From a virus (taxonomy: Duplodnaviria > Caudoviricetes), in IMG/VR virus record IMGVR_UViG_3300038393_002038, positions 1 through 53,076 of that record: a stretch of DNA of 53,076 bases; one strand, given 5' to 3'. The first letter of the stretch is position 1, and each line of letters begins with the position of its first letter. A program made the position numbers and the translations under genes. Positions 1-51,573 of the stretch are shown piece by piece. The notes beneath the pieces were generated by a model that saw only the letters and a program-made list of their open reading frames with translations, was not told the origin of the DNA and did not search any database.

Positions 1-510
1 TGCCGATTTGAGCGATGCCGATTTAAGCGATGCCAATTTGAGCGATGCCGATTTGAGCGATGCCAATTTGAGCGATGCCAATTTGAGAGGTGCCGATTTA
101 AGCGATGCCAATTTGAGCGATGCCGATTTGAGCGATGCTGATTTGAGAGGTGCCGATTTGAGCGATGCCAATTTGAGAGGTGCCAATTTGAGCGATGCTG
201 ATTTGAGAGGTGCCGATTTGAGCGATGCCAATTTGAGAGGTGCCAATTTGAGCGATGCTGATTTGAGAGGTGCCGATTTGAGCGATGCCGATTTAAGCGA
301 TGCCAATTTGAGCGATGCCGATTTGAGCGATGCCAATTTGAGCGATGCCAATTTGAGAGGTGCCGATTTAAGCGATGCCAATTTGAGCGATGCCGATTTG
401 AGCGATGCTGATTTGAGAGGTGCCGATTTGAGCGATGCCAATTTGAGAGGTGCCAATTTGAGCGATGCTGATTTGAGAGGTGCCGATTTGAGCGATGCCG
501 ATTTGAGCGA
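1..510 (+). repeat. 15-bp coding tandem repeat with 60-bp and 270-bp higher-order duplications
   Basis: Unit like TGCCGATTTGAGCGA; 1-229 equals 271-499; 151-210 equals 211-270. Confidence 0.95.
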
Positions 511-817
511 AATTAAAAAAGATTACTTCGATGTGCTTTTACGTGCAATTCCTGAAATTCCCAATTTTAAAAAGGCTTTATTAGATGGCAAAATTGATGG
601 TTCTACTTATTCAGGTGAATGCGCTTGTCTTTGTGGAACACTAATGAAATCTCACGTTGTTGAAATCTCTTGTCGTATTGATAAAATAAAAGACAGTTCA
701 CGCCCTATTGAAAGGTTCTTTCTGTGTATAAAACCAGGTATGACACCCGAAAATAGCCAACATTCAAAACTTGCTTTAGAATGGCTGGAAGAGTTTGAAA
801 GCTACATCAAAAATTAA
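1..817 (+). CDS. Pentapeptide-repeat protein (5' truncated) with Cys-containing C-terminal domain
   Basis: A(D/N)L(S/R)(D/G) repeats run from the window edge to ~510; unique C-terminus [15 protein letters not shown]. Confidence 0.9.
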
Positions 818-969: not shown

Positions 970-1014
970 TGTTTGAGTAAAATAGAATCAGAATAAGTTC
1001 TTTAAAATAATAAA

Positions 1015-1177
1015 TGGCGGTTGAAATCGGATGGATGCAAAACACGAAATAGCGAATCGCAGTAGCAGATGAAATCTAAAATAAACACCTAAGCATTATC
1101 GCCCTCAAATTAAAGCATAATGTTAAGCCGAAACACAAAGGAAGCAGCTTGACAGGCTGGAAAGACAGCCACTTTTT
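1015..1177 (+). ncRNA. Candidate structured ncRNA
   Basis: Intergenic, several hairpins, ends GGCTG-GAAAGA-CAGCC then a T-run. Confidence 0.4.
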
Positions 1178-1206
1178 AAATCAGATCATTGAAATAATTG
1201 TGTTTT

Positions 1207-1401
1207 GTGTATGTGGCGGAATAAAATCAATTACAGAAAATCTGGATAATGTTTTTAACAGACGCTGACGGTTTAGTAATCTATATAACCAAAATCCGTA
1301 AATCACGCAGATAAGAGAGGTACTTGAAAGCGGCTGACAGCAGATAACCAAGAGCGGGCAAAGAACAACTCTCGTGCAGGTAATCAATCCTGCCATACAC
1401 A
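1207..1401 (+). ncRNA. Expanded tRNA(Leu)-like RNA, no canonical anticodon loop
   Basis: Acceptor stem GTGTATG/CATACAC + A73; TGGCGGAA...AGACGC D-arm; GCAGG/CCTGC T-stem; large hairpin inserts. Confidence 0.7.
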
Positions 1402-1427
1402 GACACAATATTTAAAATTGAATCAGA

Positions 1428-1610
1428 ATGATAAAAACTATAAAATATTTAATGCTTGTCTTGTACTCAGCAGTTATGTTTTATGCGATAAACGTCGTAC
1501 ATGAAATAAAGGACGTGATAATTTTTTCTACCATAGGAATCGTATTCTTCATCCTTTTCTGTTTAATTGATTTGAAAGAATTTATTAACGACAAAATGAA
1601 CGATTTATGA
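1428..1610 (+). CDS. Small 2-TM membrane protein
   Basis: Two hydrophobic segments. Confidence 0.65.
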   Translation: MIKTIKYLMLVLYSAVMFYAINVVHEIKDVIIFSTIGIVFFILFCLIDLKEFINDKMNDL

Positions 1611-27306: not shown

Positions 27307-27351
27307 AAAAAGCCACACACCCTTAAAGTGCATGGCTTTCGTAGAAGCTCT
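27307..27351 (-). promoter_or_regulatory. Conserved leader attenuator copy 1
   Basis: AGAGCTTCTACGAAAGCC-stem-GGCTTTTT upstream of ATG 27295. Confidence 0.85.
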
Positions 27352-27367
27352 TTTTGATATTGTAAAA

Positions 27368-27384
27368 GTAATAAAATTTATTAC
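27368..27384. promoter_or_regulatory. 17-bp palindromic operator
   Basis: GTAATAAAATTTATTAC. Confidence 0.7.
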
Positions 27385-27403
27385 TTATTTTAAAATAATT
27401 TTT

Positions 27404-32954: not shown

Positions 32955-33001
32955 AAAAAAGCCCGATTCCATTGCTGAAATCAGGCTTTCGTTGAAGCTC
33001 T
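32955..33001 (-). promoter_or_regulatory. Conserved leader attenuator copy 2
   Basis: AGAGCTTCAACGAAAGCC-stem-GGCTTTTTT upstream of ATG 32941. Confidence 0.85.
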
Positions 33002-33021
33002 TTTGTTATGTAAAAGTAATA

Positions 33022-37936: not shown

Positions 37937-37983
37937 AAAAAAGCCACTACAACTTTCGCTGTAATGGCTTTCGATGAAGCTCT
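37937..37983 (-). promoter_or_regulatory. Conserved leader attenuator copy 3
   Basis: AGAGCTTCATCGAAAGCC-stem-GGCTTTTTT upstream of ATG 37923. Confidence 0.85.
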
Positions 37984-38007
37984 TATTTTTAAAAGTTAAC
38001 TTATAGG

Positions 38008-46235: not shown

Positions 46236-46283
46236 AAAAAAGCCGTAATACGTTTTAAGTATTACGGCTTTCGATGAAGCTCT
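46236..46283 (-). promoter_or_regulatory. Conserved leader attenuator copy 4
   Basis: AGAGCTTCATCGAAAGCC-GTAATAC/GTATTAC-GGCTTTTTT upstream of portal ATG. Confidence 0.85.
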
Positions 46284-46368
46284 TCGGGTGCCCTATCCTG
46301 CTGTACACTTAGGAAATTATCATAAACGTCGCTTCATGTGAAATTGCGCAATCGCTATTCCGCAACGT

Positions 46369-46735: not shown

Positions 46736-46858
46736 CAAGTAATTATTTTTATTGGTCAGTTATTTTATAGAAAACCCCTCGTAAAAACGAAGGGTGATTT
46801 TAAACTTTTATTCCTAAATTATTACCAATGAAATAACTATTGCTTTTCGATAGTAAAA

Positions 46859-46875
46859 GTAATATTATTTATTAC
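46859..46875. promoter_or_regulatory. 17-bp palindromic operator
   Basis: GTAATATTATTTATTAC. Confidence 0.65.
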
Positions 46876-46908
46876 TATTTGCTGGCATAATTATTAACAG
46901 GATGTGTA

Positions 46909-47974: not shown

Positions 47975-47993
47975 TTGTTAAGTTTTTTCAAAA

Positions 47994-48010
47994 GTAATAA
48001 AAAATATTAC
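47994..48010. promoter_or_regulatory. 17-bp palindromic operator overlapping a TACTTTTG -7 box
   Basis: GTAATAAAAAATATTAC. Confidence 0.7.
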
Positions 48011-48087
48011 TTAAAATAAATTAATTGTACATTTGTGTACTCATAAGTTAGTTTTGGTGACGGCCTTTGTTTCTACAGGGGCCTTTT

Positions 48088-50031: not shown

Positions 50032-50043
50032 TTAATGTCAAAA

Positions 50044-50060
50044 GTAATAAAAATTATTAC
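50044..50060. promoter_or_regulatory. 17-bp palindromic operator overlapping a TACTTTTG -7 box of terS
   Basis: GTAATAAAAATTATTAC. Confidence 0.7.
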
Positions 50061-50103
50061 TTAAATAATATAATCGCATTCAATTCGTATATTCTCTTAA
50101 CTT

Positions 50104-51231: not shown

Positions 51232-51573
51232 ATGCAAGAAAAATACAGCAACATAATAACCGACTTCTTAAAATCCCATTCTCTCATTTCTGTAAAGGCT
51301 TTGGAAGAAGCTTTAAAAATCCCCCAAAGCACAATCTGGAAAGCAGTGCAGGGCGAAAGGTTGATTCCTGAAAAACACATTTTTCCTCTTATTTGTTTTC
51401 TCGCTGATTATGGTTTAAGAATCGACGGACACACATTAGAATATGATCATTCAGACGGCACTATTATTGGTCGCAAAGCAATAGAAGTTGAAACACAGGA
51501 AGACGGCGACGGTTTTATTTATCTTGTAAAAGAATACCGGTTTATTGTGAGTGATTATTTTGATTTACTTTAA
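51232..51573 (+). CDS. XRE/Cro-like HTH protein
   Basis: ISVKALEEALKIPQSTIWKAVQGER.IP. Confidence 0.7.
   Translation: MQEKYSNIITDFLKSHSLISVKALEEALKIPQSTIWKAVQGERLIPEKHIFPLICFLADYGLRIDGHTLEYDHSDGTIIGRKAIEVETQEDGDGFIYLVKEYRFIVSDYFDLL

What the first reader, a model, noticed from the sequence alone, without database searches (positions are those of the whole stretch)
1197..1409. Giant tRNA-like RNA with hairpin insertions in D-loop, anticodon and variable arms
Seen: perfect 7-bp acceptor GTGTATG(1207)/CATACAC(1400), discriminator A, Leu-type TGGCGGAA...AGACGC D-arm, T-stem GCAGG/CCTGC with atypical loop TAATCAAT. Inserts fold as hairpins (CAGA-AAA-TCTG within ATTA/TAAT; ACGG..CCGT; GAGAG..CTCTC). 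Flanks extend the stem (ATTGTGT/ACACAAT). It is 195 nt with no standard anticodon loop, so unlikely to decode. Inference: a tRNA mimic or decoy, e.g. for tRNA-targeting defences, or a processing signal in the early transcript.
Basis: partly seen in the sequence, partly recalled or inferred. Interest (0 to 1): 0.7.

Follow-up and report, generated by a model that had tools for sequence, protein, structure and literature searches.

The report
Leucine-tRNA-framed phage RNA with inserts
A soil phage of Chitinophagaceae bacteria carries a 195-base RNA gene that keeps the outer frame of a leucine tRNA but holds three folded inserts where the working parts should be, so it belongs to a little-studied class of non-decoding tRNA look-alikes and also weakly resembles the cage-forming manA RNAs.

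Summary
Every stem lies at the stated coordinates. The D-arm flanks (UGGCGGAAU…AGACGC) and the T-arm (GUGCAGGU…UCCUG) match the tRNA-Leu(CAA) of the likely host lineage.

The element cannot decode:
- The tRNA covariance model and ARAGORN both reject it.
- G18G19 are missing.
- The anticodon loop has 24 nt.
- The T-loop has 8 nt.

Architectural relatives with the same D-arm, a D-loop hairpin insert, covarying acceptor stems and a T-arm occur in IMG/VR phages (L182, L184, L187, L191, L196). Contigs from soil metagenome runs keep this RNA's 5' and 3' frame but continue with different interiors.

The closest described things are the "tRNA-like stable RNAs" RNA1 and RNA2 annotated in phage T5. Earlier notes of this scan reported the same class on other DNA (e1-6107528, e1-5677029, e1-5841181).

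New here:
- The carrier is a temperate soil Bacteroidota phage.
- There are three insert slots.
- There is a full-length but sub-threshold match to Rfam manA (25.9 bits; the best score in two samples of 151 Bacteroidota genomes was 20.9).

My reading is a tRNA frame serving as a processing and stability chassis for swappable RNA modules. The decoy and processing-signal ideas are untested.

The parts
1155..1177 (+). Terminator-like hairpin GGCTG-GAAAGA-CAGCC followed by a T-run, directly upstream of the RNA
   Evidence: A 31-nt block 1150-1180 is 97% identical in the closest relative L003. It is also seen in Chitinophagaceae genomes L095 and L090, in L090 with a compensatory change.
1191..1206 (+). 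5' leader. It is either the manA-type P0 hairpin (GAAAUA-AUUG-UGUUUU), or 1197-1203 forms the 5' half of a stem extension with 1403-1409.
   Evidence: The manA model aligns it as P0. Thermodynamics favour the extension (0.71-1.0) over P0 (0.0). A soil contig diverges upstream of 1192 (loose ends).
1207..1213 (+). Acceptor-like stem, 5' strand GUGUAUG (the closing stem P1 in the manA reading)
   Evidence: L119, a tRNA-Leu(UAA) with an insert, carries GCGUAUG; the one difference is compensated on the 3' side.
1214..1222 (+). U8 G9, D-stem 5' strand GCG(G), then A14 A15 U16: the block UGGCGGAAU is identical to host-type tRNA-Leu(CAA)
1223..1259 (+). Insert 1, in the D-loop in place of G18G19: AAAAUCAAU, a hairpin (core CAGA-AAA-UCUG), then UAAUGU. 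The manA model aligns it to AAUAAA-P3-UAAG-GU.
1260..1266 (+). AGA plus D-stem 3' strand CGC plus U26, as in host tRNA-Leu(CAA)
1267..1300 (+). Anticodon-arm position: weak 4-bp stem ACGG/CCGU around a 24-nt loop that begins UUUAGUA (insert 2)
   Evidence: Pair probability is only 0.16-0.17. There is no standard 5-bp stem with a 7-nt loop.
1301..1375 (+). Variable-arm position: long branched hairpin closed by GAGAG/CUCUC (insert 3), then G and U1375 directly before the T-stem
   Evidence: The manA model aligns it to the long hairpin P8.
1376..1393 (+). T-arm GCAGG-UAAUCAAU-CCUGC. The stem and the preceding GU match host tRNA-Leu(CAA). The 8-nt loop is identical to that of relative L182.
1394..1401 (+). 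Acceptor 3' strand CAUACAC plus discriminator A. No CCA is encoded.
1403..1409 (+). 3' half of the stem extension (ACACAAU)
1428..1610 (+). Downstream 60-aa ORF; its sequence looks like two membrane-spanning segments (my reading, no tool run). It is not an obligate partner of the RNA.
   Evidence: No Pfam or PHROG family. No relative in viral contigs. A soil contig joins 1417 to 1604 with 5 other letters between, so it lacks this ORF (table 5).

Best explanation
Positions 1207-1401 (+) are the gene of a non-decoding RNA built on the frame of a class II leucine tRNA.

What is kept of the frame: a 7-bp acceptor stem stacked on a 5-bp T-stem, U8, G9, the D-stem, A14-A15, the U before the T-stem, and A73.

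What is inserted: three folded modules, in the D-loop, in the anticodon loop and at the variable arm.

Proposed working (inferred): the frame serves as a chassis. It lets the RNA be recognised and trimmed by the cell's tRNA-maturation enzymes and makes it stable. The inserts carry the still unknown activity and are exchanged between related phages. It acts in trans, not as a codon reader.

The D-loop module and the overall five-helix layout are of the manA type. Loop-loop self-association, as reported for manA RNAs, is therefore a possible activity.

Shown: the frame, its Leu-type origin, the loss of decoding features, architectural relatives with covarying stems, and contigs that share the frame but continue with different interiors. 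Inferred: processing, stability, action in trans, and any activity of the inserts.
For: Frame and origin:
- The D-arm blocks and the T-arm are identical to tRNA-Leu(CAA) of the probable host lineage. The host was assigned through an exact 100-nt match of the window's tRNA-Asp region in a Ginsengibacter MAG. The D-arm occurs in 31 of 41 family genomes, and 7 of 7 places examined are tRNA-Leu(CAA).
- Both blocks are unique in the window and occur in 0 of 100 shuffles.
- Against that host tRNA, 6 of the 7 acceptor pairs are changed on both strands and all still pair.

Not a decoder: no tRNA call. True tRNA-Leu genes score 45-58 bits on the same model, one of them with a 28-nt insert.

Architectural relatives:
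- The D-arm pattern scan returned 28 loci.
- L184, L187, L191 and L196 have an acceptor of at least 6/7 pairs, an adjacent 5/5 T-stem, a U before it, related T-loops (UGAAAAU twice, UGAAAGU, UGCAAAU) and a stable hairpin in the D-loop. L182 has the window's own T-loop UAAUCAAU.

Swappable interior: soil contigs match 1192/1195-1266 without a difference and then run on unlike, others diverge after 1224, and one enters at 1376 from unlike sequence (tables 7 and 8).

Precedent: the phage T5 record annotates RNA1 and RNA2 as 'tRNA-like stable RNA with unknown functions'. RNA1 has a Leu-type D-arm and RNA2 has the T-stem GCAGG/CCUGU.

manA-type features:
- RF01745 matches positions 1-192 of 192 at 25.9 bits: E 1.1e-4 on 601 nt, 0.0095 on the whole window against all families, 2.2e-6 for one family.
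- Two samples of 151 Bacteroidota genomes gave at best 19.2 and 20.9 bits.
- True tRNA-Leu genes give no manA hit at E<=10.
Against: - No close homologue of the whole RNA could be fetched, so there is no covariation test for the inserts.
- The relatives found share a D-arm that the search pattern itself imposed. By my estimate about 3 of 28 loci would pass the stem criteria by chance, and one passer (L185) is doubtful.
- Those relatives give neither a tRNA nor a manA hit at E<=5.
- The MFE z-score is only -1.88.
- The flanks extend the acceptor stem (0.71-1.0), which is unusual for an RNase P substrate.
- No promoter was found between the terminator-like hairpin and the RNA.
- The manA score is below Rfam's threshold (55.2). 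The manA-type 2-bp P2 and the P0 hairpin have probability 0.0, and a manA-constrained fold is 9.4 kcal/mol worse than the MFE.
- The manA middle domain (P4-P7) does not align.
Confidence: 0.55

Rival explanations
1. It is simply a divergent member of the manA family (RF01745) and works as manA RNAs do, as a self-assembling RNA or a cis-acting leader. On this view the tRNA-Leu look reflects manA's own architecture.
For: - Full-length model match with significant E-values.
- Shared unpaired motifs: UG-RC-KGAAUAAA, hairpin, UAAN-GU, U before the last hairpin, GGUA…AAUCC.
- The original manA seed alignment holds variants such as GGGUAUG.ACGGAAUAAA and loops GGUAA.UCGCAAA.UCC (supplement file 5, part 119).
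- Accepted or near members span a wide score range: L042 at 63.7 bits, and the 295-nt variant L035 at 30.0 bits.
- The element lies 24 nt upstream of an ORF.
Against: - 25.9 bits against a gathering score of 55.2.
- The P4-P7 domain is not aligned, and P2 and P0 are not supported by folding.
- The D- and T-arm blocks are identical to a real host-type tRNA-Leu(CAA), which canonical manA RNAs are not.
- The architectural relatives give no manA hit.
- The downstream ORF is missing in a related contig.
Confidence: 0.2
2. It is a decaying tRNA-Leu pseudogene that has accumulated insertions and has no function.
For: - The T-loop, the G18G19 region and the anticodon arm are degenerate.
- The tRNA models fail.
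- The z-score is weak.
- No RNA data are available.
Against: - The acceptor is fully compensated at 6 changed pairs against host tRNA-Leu(CAA).
- The inserts fold.
- The same frame-plus-insert layout recurs in unrelated phage contigs.
- The frame ends are kept without a difference in contigs of other soil runs whose interiors differ.
Confidence: 0.1
3. It is a cis-acting element of the early transcript: a tRNA-like cleavage signal or a leader that controls ORF60 and the erf operon.
For: - It lies on the same strand as the early genes, between a terminator-like hairpin and ORF60.
- manA RNAs were first proposed to be cis-regulatory (PMC2864571, passages read).
Against: - ORF60 is absent from a related contig that keeps the RNA's 3' end.
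- manA-type RNAs often lie flush in tRNA arrays and not before ORFs: 5 of 19 canonical loci and 7 of 7 copies of the 295-nt variant.
- The T5 counterparts are annotated as stable RNAs.
Confidence: 0.1
4. It is an interrupted but functional tRNA-Leu(UAG) whose inserts are removed after transcription.
For: - The loop begins UUUAGUA, which can be read as U33 followed by the anticodon UAG.
- L119 is a tRNA-Leu(UAA) with a 28-nt insert in its anticodon loop.
Against: - Three separate inserts would have to be removed, one of them in the D-loop.
- To my knowledge (recalled) bacteria have no splicing route for such short inserts.
- The T-loop has 8 nt.
- ARAGORN with introns up to 200 nt finds nothing.
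Confidence: 0.03

Closest known systems
Phage T5 RNA1 and RNA2 (misc_RNA in AY543070.1, 30501-30644 and 32959-33083, annotated 'tRNA-like stable RNA with unknown functions')
   Same: - Phage-encoded and non-decoding.
- They keep an acceptor-like closing stem and a T-arm.
- RNA1 has a Leu-type D-arm (GCCGGAAUUGGUAGACGG) and a long body where the anticodon arm should be.
- RNA2 has the T-stem GCAGG/CCUGU.
   Different: - The T5 RNAs lie in the tRNA cluster of a virulent coliphage; this one lies in the early region of a temperate Chitinophagaceae phage, far from its tRNAs.
- T5 RNA1 keeps an intact D-loop, while here the D-loop holds a 37-nt insert.
- I detected no sequence homology beyond the frame; the comparison was made by eye, not by a model.
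manA RNA motif (Rfam RF01745; Weinberg et al. 2010, PMC2864571; cryo-EM preprint 10.64898/2026.07.01.735769)
   Same: - A five-helix junction closed by a terminal stem.
- UG, then a short helix, then GAAUAAA, a hairpin and UAAN-GU.
- A long hairpin, then a U, then a last hairpin with a GGUA…AAUCC loop that runs straight into the closing stem.
- Phage-borne.
- End-to-end model match.
   Different: - The score is less than half of the gathering score.
- The three-hairpin middle domain is not recognisable.
- The closing stem has 7 bp plus an extension, not 5 bp.
- The host range is new: soil Bacteroidota phage against marine cyanophages and gamma-proteobacteria.
- Oligomerisation was not tested.
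Host-type tRNA-Leu(CAA) of Chitinophagaceae (for example L169 from the Ginsengibacter MAG)
   Same: UGGCGGAAU…AGACGC, GUGCAGGU…UCCUG, A15 with a U before the T-stem, a class II layout and discriminator A.
   Different: - 195 nt against 85 nt.
- 6 of the 7 acceptor pairs are different.
- No G18G19.
- A 24-nt loop on a 4-bp stem in place of the anticodon arm.
- A variable arm about five times longer.
- An 8-nt T-loop.
tmRNA (a tRNA-like domain with a large body inserted)
   Same: An acceptor and T-arm frame kept around a large inserted body; a non-canonical tRNA derivative.
   Different: ARAGORN's tmRNA search finds nothing. There is no tag reading frame and there are no pseudoknot rings. The Leu-type D-arm is retained.
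Engineered tRNA scaffolds for expressing recombinant RNA (recalled from the literature, not looked up here)
   Same: What it works like: a tRNA frame that gives processing and nuclease resistance to a cargo inserted in the anticodon arm.
   Different: The scaffolds are man-made. Here the arrangement is natural and has three slots. The resemblance is a lead, not a test.

Membership tests
tRNA (Rfam RF00005) / decoding tRNA-Leu | Score at or above 29 bits on the tRNA covariance model, or a call by ARAGORN | tested here: not met
   No hit at E<=10. ARAGORN finds nothing, also with introns up to 200 nt. Real tRNA-Leu genes score 45-58 bits.
tRNA (Rfam RF00005) / decoding tRNA-Leu | 7-bp acceptor stem continuous with a 5-bp T-stem, and discriminator A73 | tested here: met
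   1207-1213/1394-1400 and 1376-1380/1389-1393, with A1401
tRNA (Rfam RF00005) / decoding tRNA-Leu | Leu-type D-arm (U8 G9 GCGG AAU … AGA CGC) with G18G19 in the loop | tested here: inconclusive
   The flanking blocks are identical to host-type tRNA-Leu(CAA). The UGGU segment that holds G18G19 is replaced by a 37-nt insert.
tRNA (Rfam RF00005) / decoding tRNA-Leu | 5-bp anticodon stem with a 7-nt loop | tested here: not met
   A 4-bp stem ACGG/CCGU with a 24-nt loop; pair probability 0.16-0.17
tRNA (Rfam RF00005) / decoding tRNA-Leu | 7-nt T-loop of the UUCRANY type | tested here: not met
   The loop is UAAUCAAU, 8 nt
manA RNA (Rfam RF01745) | Score at or above the gathering score of 55.2 bits | tested here: not met
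   25.9 bits
manA RNA (Rfam RF01745) | End-to-end match that stands out from background | tested here: met
   Model positions 1-192 of 192, E 0.0095 for the window against all 4227 families. The best scores in two samples of 151 Bacteroidota genomes were 19.2 and 20.9 bits, obtained with stricter filters. Five related phage records gave none.
manA RNA (Rfam RF01745) | Conserved junction letters: UG, 2-bp P2, GAAUAAA, P3 hairpin, UAAN, GU; U before P9; GGUA…AAUCC loop; P9 running into P1 | tested here: inconclusive
   All the letters are present (compared with the consensus). However, P2 has probability 0.0, and the competing tRNA-type D-stem has 0.64.
manA RNA (Rfam RF01745) | Middle domain P4 enclosing three hairpins (P5-P7) | tested here: not met
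   The model deletes P4 and aligns P5-P7 with low posterior probability and non-standard pairs.
manA RNA (Rfam RF01745) | Homo-oligomers through kissing loops (preprint, sections 7 and 8 read) | not testable with these tools
   describe the property; there is no RNA structure tool here.
Leu-tRNA-framed phage RNAs (T5 RNA1 type; class also noted earlier in this scan) | tRNA-Leu upper body (acceptor, D-stem, T-arm) kept, no usable anticodon arm, folded inserts | tested here: met
   T5 RNA1 for comparison
Leu-tRNA-framed phage RNAs (T5 RNA1 type; class also noted earlier in this scan) | Frame conserved while inserts differ between relatives | tested here: met
   Loose ends of soil contigs after 1224 and 1266 and before 1376 and 1192. 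IMG/VR members of 122-255 nt with different inserts.
Leu-tRNA-framed phage RNAs (T5 RNA1 type; class also noted earlier in this scan) | Accumulates as a stable processed RNA | not testable with these tools
   No RNA run is listed for this DNA.
tmRNA | Call by ARAGORN's tmRNA search, with a tag peptide frame | tested here: not met
   (option -m): nothing found

The most novel reading that the evidence does not exclude
The cage-forming manA RNAs and the Leu-tRNA-framed phage RNAs are one lineage. On this reading manA is a heavily remodelled class II (leucine-type) tRNA, and this RNA is a transitional form that still carries host-type D- and T-arm sequences.

The correspondence would be: manA's terminal stem is the acceptor, P2/P3 an expanded D-arm, P4-P7 an expanded anticodon arm, P8 the variable arm and P9 the T-arm.

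The manA consensus keeps letters at the places of the tRNA core contacts: U8, A14, A15, A21, a U before the T-stem, U54 and A58. The numbering and the contacts are recalled knowledge. The consensus often has ACC after the closing stem.

If this is right, manA RNAs would be cut out by tRNA-maturation enzymes. That would explain why they so often lie flush in phage tRNA arrays.
Probability: 0.3. Interest if true: 0.75.

Novelty: new variant of a known kind. Interest (0 to 1): 0.5.

Why it matters
Phages of very different hosts carry RNAs that keep a leucine-tRNA frame but cannot read codons. The T5 examples are annotated as stable RNAs of unknown function and I know of no explanation for them.

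This case extends the class in three ways:
- It is found in a temperate soil Bacteroidota phage.
- It shows three insert slots in one molecule.
- It gives a sequence-level bridge to the manA RNAs, whose only known property is assembly into RNA-only cages in vitro.

If the bridge holds, two open questions become one testable question: what manA RNAs do, and what the tRNA-like stable RNAs do. The tests would be ordinary tRNA biochemistry, namely RNase P cleavage, CCA addition and charging.

Tried and rejected
Searches for close homologues of the whole RNA all failed:
- phages collection, megablast and blastn;
- Viral contigs patterns (one search gave one chance hit in a coding region; two searches gave none);
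- Metagenome contigs pattern (14 loci, none with the fold, and the three tested gave no manA hit);
- BLAST in 401 Chitinophagaceae genomes (31 genomes with only short matches of about 20-50 nt, read as chance after inspection);
- the genome contigs Erf scan found nothing.

Other dead ends:
- Neighbour route: 32 Erf loci hold no copy. The closest, L003, has the shared hairpin directly before erf.
- The pattern for the T-stem plus acceptor 3' strand gave 62 loci. Seven loci with a shared GCAGG…ATACACA motif, five of them with a matching 5' heptamer, turned out to be a conserved coding region.
- An own covariance model was not built. The canonical manA set in hand is too uniform, and MAFFT misaligned L042.
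- Minus-strand ORF 1181-1408 (75 aa): no PHROG family and a Cys/Leu-rich translation. Rejected as a gene.
- Sequencing runs: no RNA holder is listed.
- Read laying: the four runs gave no cover of 1270-1350. This is not used as evidence.
- The joint 1214->1386 rests on one contig with a 23-letter side at 80% likeness and is left uninterpreted.
- Terminase look-up in the protein atlas gave no host.
- Earlier-findings look-ups by sequence found nothing.
- Not in print as far as searched: a link between manA and tRNA ancestry. The manA preprint has 0 occurrences of 'tRNA'. PMC10690425 was read in passages only. The bioRxiv supplements, which hold the secondary-structure figures of the manA monomers, could not be seen.
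Full report
**What the window is.** The window is a whole IMG/VR virus record of 53,076 bases, estimated 98% complete.
- It encodes an integrase next to a tRNA-Asp at its right end, plus terminase, portal, an Erf-type recombinase and a helicase.
- The last 127 bases (tRNA-Asp and its upstream flank) are 99.2% identical to a contig of a Ginsengibacter MAG, and the likeness stops at the tRNA's 3' end.
- It is therefore a temperate phage of Chitinophagaceae (Bacteroidota), cut out with a little host DNA.
- The stretch 600-2600 is held by soil and rhizosphere metagenome runs. Leaving out possible source samples, 8 runs from 8 studies hold half or more of its sampled words.

**The observation.** In the partition function the acceptor (0.87-1.0), T-stem (0.91-0.92), D-stem (0.64), the core of the D-loop hairpin (0.68-0.90), the GAGAG/CUCUC stem (0.53-0.54) and the flank extension (0.71-1.0) are favoured. 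ACGG/CCGU is weak (0.16-0.17).

The geometry alone is not remarkable. A perfect 7-bp stem next to a 5-bp hairpin occurs 14 times in the window, against 10.5 on average in 100 shuffles. The MFE z-score is -1.88.

The sequence is what makes it real:
- TGGCGGAAT…AGACGC and GTGCAGGT…TCCTG each occur once in the window, here, and in none of 100 shuffles.
- TGGCGGAAT(TGGT)AGACGC is present in 31 of 41 Chitinophagaceae genomes, with one hit of the reversed control pattern. All 7 places I examined, one of them in the Ginsengibacter MAG, are tRNA-Leu(CAA).
- That host-type tRNA also has GU-GCAGG-UUCGAUU-CCUGU as its T-arm and A as discriminator.
- Against it, the window RNA keeps the D-stem, A14-A15-U16, AGA-CGC, the GU before the T-stem and the T-stem. 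It changes 6 of the 7 acceptor pairs on both strands, and all seven still pair.

**It is not a tRNA that can decode.**
- ARAGORN calls nothing here, even with introns up to 200 nt, and finds no tmRNA.
- The Rfam tRNA model gives no hit at E<=10. The same model scores the host tRNA-Leu at 58.5 bits, three phage tRNA-Leu genes at 49-53, a phage tRNA-Leu with a 28-nt insert at 45.5, and a tRNA-like gene with a 53-nt insert at 51.2.
- The segment that holds G18G19 is replaced by a 37-nt insert. The anticodon position is a 24-nt loop on a weak 4-bp stem. The variable-arm position holds about 70 nt. The T-loop has 8 nt.

**The manA match.** The only Rfam family that matches is manA (RF01745).
- The match covers model positions 1-192 of 192 at 25.9 bits. 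E is 1.1e-4 on 601 nt and 0.0095 on the whole window against all 4227 families; the single-family search of the window's own record gives 2.2e-6.
- This is under the gathering score of 55.2.
- The well-aligned parts are the 5' 60 nt and the 3' 35 nt. They cover a leader hairpin, the closing stem, UG, GC, GGAAUAAA, a hairpin, UAAU, GU, and later a long hairpin, U, and GCAGG-UAAUC..AAU-CCUGC running into the closing stem.
- The middle domain is deleted or poorly aligned.

As background for that score:
- Two samples of 151 Bacteroidota genomes gave best scores of 19.2 and 20.9 bits. Those hits do not look like the RNA. The searches used stricter filters.
- Five related phage records gave none.
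- True tRNA-Leu genes give no manA hit at E<=10. The match is therefore not a by-product of the Leu frame alone.

The family itself is wide:
- In IMG/VR, three canonical manA RNAs that I scored reach 147-179 bits and a divergent one (L042) 63.7.
- A 295-nt variant present in 7 identical copies (L035 and others) scores 30.0.
- The original seed alignment holds members with GGGUAUG.ACGGAAUAAA and with last-hairpin loops GGUAA.UCGCAAA.UCC.

Against membership: folding gives the manA-type 2-bp helix and the leader hairpin probability 0.0, and a manA-constrained fold is 9.4 kcal/mol worse than the MFE, which is the tRNA-like cloverleaf with inserts.

**Relatives.** I could not fetch any close homologue of the whole RNA (see Tried and rejected). 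Three kinds of relative were found.

1. *Contigs of soil runs*.
   - Some match 1192-1266 or 1195-1266 without a single difference and then run on with unlike sequence.
   - Others diverge after 1224.
   - One comes from unlike sequence into 1376-1413.
   - One carries different sequence up to 1192, which is where the manA model places the RNA's start (1191).
   - One joins 1417 to 1604, so the 60-aa ORF downstream is not an obligate partner.

2. *The closest phage by its Erf protein* (L003, 71% identity). It shares the terminator-like hairpin 1150-1180 but has erf directly behind it. About 130 nt upstream of that hairpin it carries a 120-nt tRNA-like gene. Its acceptor and T stems (UGCGUAU/AUACGCA, GCAGG/CCUGC) are those of the window RNA but for one compensated pair.
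   - The same signature searched in IMG/VR gave 62 loci. Only 4 of them have a tRNA-type context. The three that ARAGORN calls are all tRNA-Leu, one with a 28-nt insert in its anticodon loop.
   - None of 101 host-family genomes carries the signature.

3. *IMG/VR loci with the D-arm pattern* TGGCGGAATAAA-N(15-45)-AGACGC: 28 loci.
   - With the test 'acceptor at least 6/7 pairs and an adjacent T-stem of 5/5', L184, L185, L187, L191 and L196 pass. L182 passes with 7/7 and 4/5.
   - By my own estimate about 3 of 28 would pass by chance, so I rely on further shared features.
   - L184, L191 and L196 have GG-UGAAA(A/G)U-CC T-arms, L187 has UGCAAAU, and L182 has the window's own UAAUCAAU.
   - All have a U before the T-stem.
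   - All but L185 have a stable hairpin right after AAUAAA (-3.0 to -15.0 kcal/mol).
   - Their MFE folds are cloverleaves with inserts, 122-255 nt long. L185 is doubtful.
   - The D-arm itself was imposed by the pattern.
   - None of the four of these I tested (L182, L184, L187, L196) gives a tRNA or manA hit at E<=5. L191 and L185 were not among the sources of that search.

**What is known.** The GenBank record of phage T5 annotates RNA1 and RNA2 as 'tRNA-like stable RNA with unknown functions' inside its tRNA region. RNA1 has a Leu-type D-arm and a long body in place of the anticodon arm. RNA2 has the T-stem GCAGG/CCUGU (read by eye).

Earlier notes of this scan describe the same class on other DNA and name T5 RNA1 as the closest known thing (e1-6107528, e1-5677029, e1-5841181). 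I took the T5 lead from them and checked it in the record.

manA was described as a riboswitch candidate of cyanophages, marine metagenomes and two gamma-proteobacteria (PMC2864571, passages and supplement part read). A 2026 preprint reports decamers and a 60-mer cage held by kissing loops (10.64898/2026.07.01.735769, passages and section 8 read).

**How it most likely works.** Shown: the frame, its origin, the loss of decoding parts and the exchange of interiors. Inferred: the frame is kept because it is what the cell's tRNA-maturation enzymes recognise and what makes a small RNA stable, and the inserts are the working cargo.

I put 0.55 on this chassis-and-cargo reading. It includes the possibility that the cargo mediates self-association as in manA.

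Points against it:
- The flanks extend the acceptor stem.
- No promoter was found between the upstream hairpin and the RNA.
- There are no RNA data.

**The boldest reading** is that manA RNAs and these Leu-framed RNAs are one lineage. In favour:
- The helix order and the lengths of the junction strands are the same.
- The manA consensus has U-G after the closing stem, A-A at the places of A14-A15, UAA before the 3' strand of the short helix, one U before the last hairpin, a loop that starts with U and has A three places before its end, and often ACC after the closing stem (consensus lines; alignment). The tRNA contacts to which I compare these are recalled knowledge.
- manA-type RNAs lie flush in tRNA arrays. 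In 5 of 19 canonical loci a tRNA-Asn starts 7-10 nt behind the closing stem. All 7 copies of the 295-nt variant fill the gap between tRNA-Thr and tRNA-Gly with spacers of 1 and 2 nt. Earlier notes of the scan saw this too (e1-6017216).

Against: the match is weak, the Leu-framed relatives do not hit manA, and convergence on a five-helix junction is possible. I give it 0.3.

**Verdict.** This is a real, tRNA-Leu-derived, non-decoding phage RNA gene. It is a new variant of a known but unexplained kind. Its interest is moderate, raised by the possible bridge to manA.

Noticed in passing
window 1-817: A 15-nt tandem repeat (26 copies in register, 1-612) lies inside an ORF that is a pentapeptide-repeat protein (PF00805, E 1e-61). 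The ORF is open at the record's left end.
   Followed up: partly
L003 2125-2244 (IMGVR_UViG_3300038412_000083): The only tRNA-type gene of the closest relative phage scores 51.2 bits on the tRNA model. It has 53 nt where the 7-nt anticodon loop should be. ARAGORN calls it only as an intron-bearing tRNA with an implausible anticodon.
   Followed up: partly
L119 314-426: A phage tRNA-Leu(UAA) carries a 28-nt hairpin insert in its anticodon loop and sits in a tRNA array.
   Followed up: partly
L035 502-796 (-) and six identical copies (L039, L043, L046, L048, L052, L054): A 295-nt manA-like RNA (30.0 bits) closed by a 9-bp stem fills the gap between tRNA-Thr and tRNA-Gly in a four-tRNA array. It holds a second internal hairpin of the GGUAAGCAAUCC type.
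   Followed up: partly
L040, L049, L056, L060, L062: In these loci canonical manA RNAs are followed after 7-10 nt by tRNA-Asn on the same strand. This holds for 5 of 19 canonical loci with 600-nt flanks.
   Followed up: partly
window 1150-1180; L003 2378-2408; L090; L095: The terminator-like hairpin upstream of the RNA recurs in the relative phage and in two Chitinophagaceae genomes, once with a compensatory change (GGCTG/CAGCC to GCCTG/CAGGC).
   Followed up: partly
window 984-993 and 1420-1429: GAATCAGAAT occurs on both sides of the hairpin-plus-RNA segment. In one soil contig a near copy of the first site is joined directly to 1192.
   Followed up: no
window 27334-27400, 32984-33021, 37966-37984, 46266-46284, 46850-46876, 47985-48026, 50035-50076, 51297-51315: Two repeated motifs (GGCTTTCGATGAAGCTCTT and AAAAGTAATAAAATTTATTACTT) recur in or near the gaps between the large minus-strand ORFs (portal and terminase among them). 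They are probably terminator and promoter cassettes.
   Followed up: no
L184 flanks of 344-505: By eye, the sequences just outside the acceptor stem of this relative also pair with each other (…GAAGTTGG / CAACTC…), as in the window RNA. This was not computed.
   Followed up: no
L201 (phage T5 AY543070.1, 30284-30500, 31808-31979, 32838-32940): Besides RNA1-3 the T5 record lists RNAI, RNAIII, RNAIV and RNA2H as stable RNAs of unknown function in the tRNA region.
   Followed up: no
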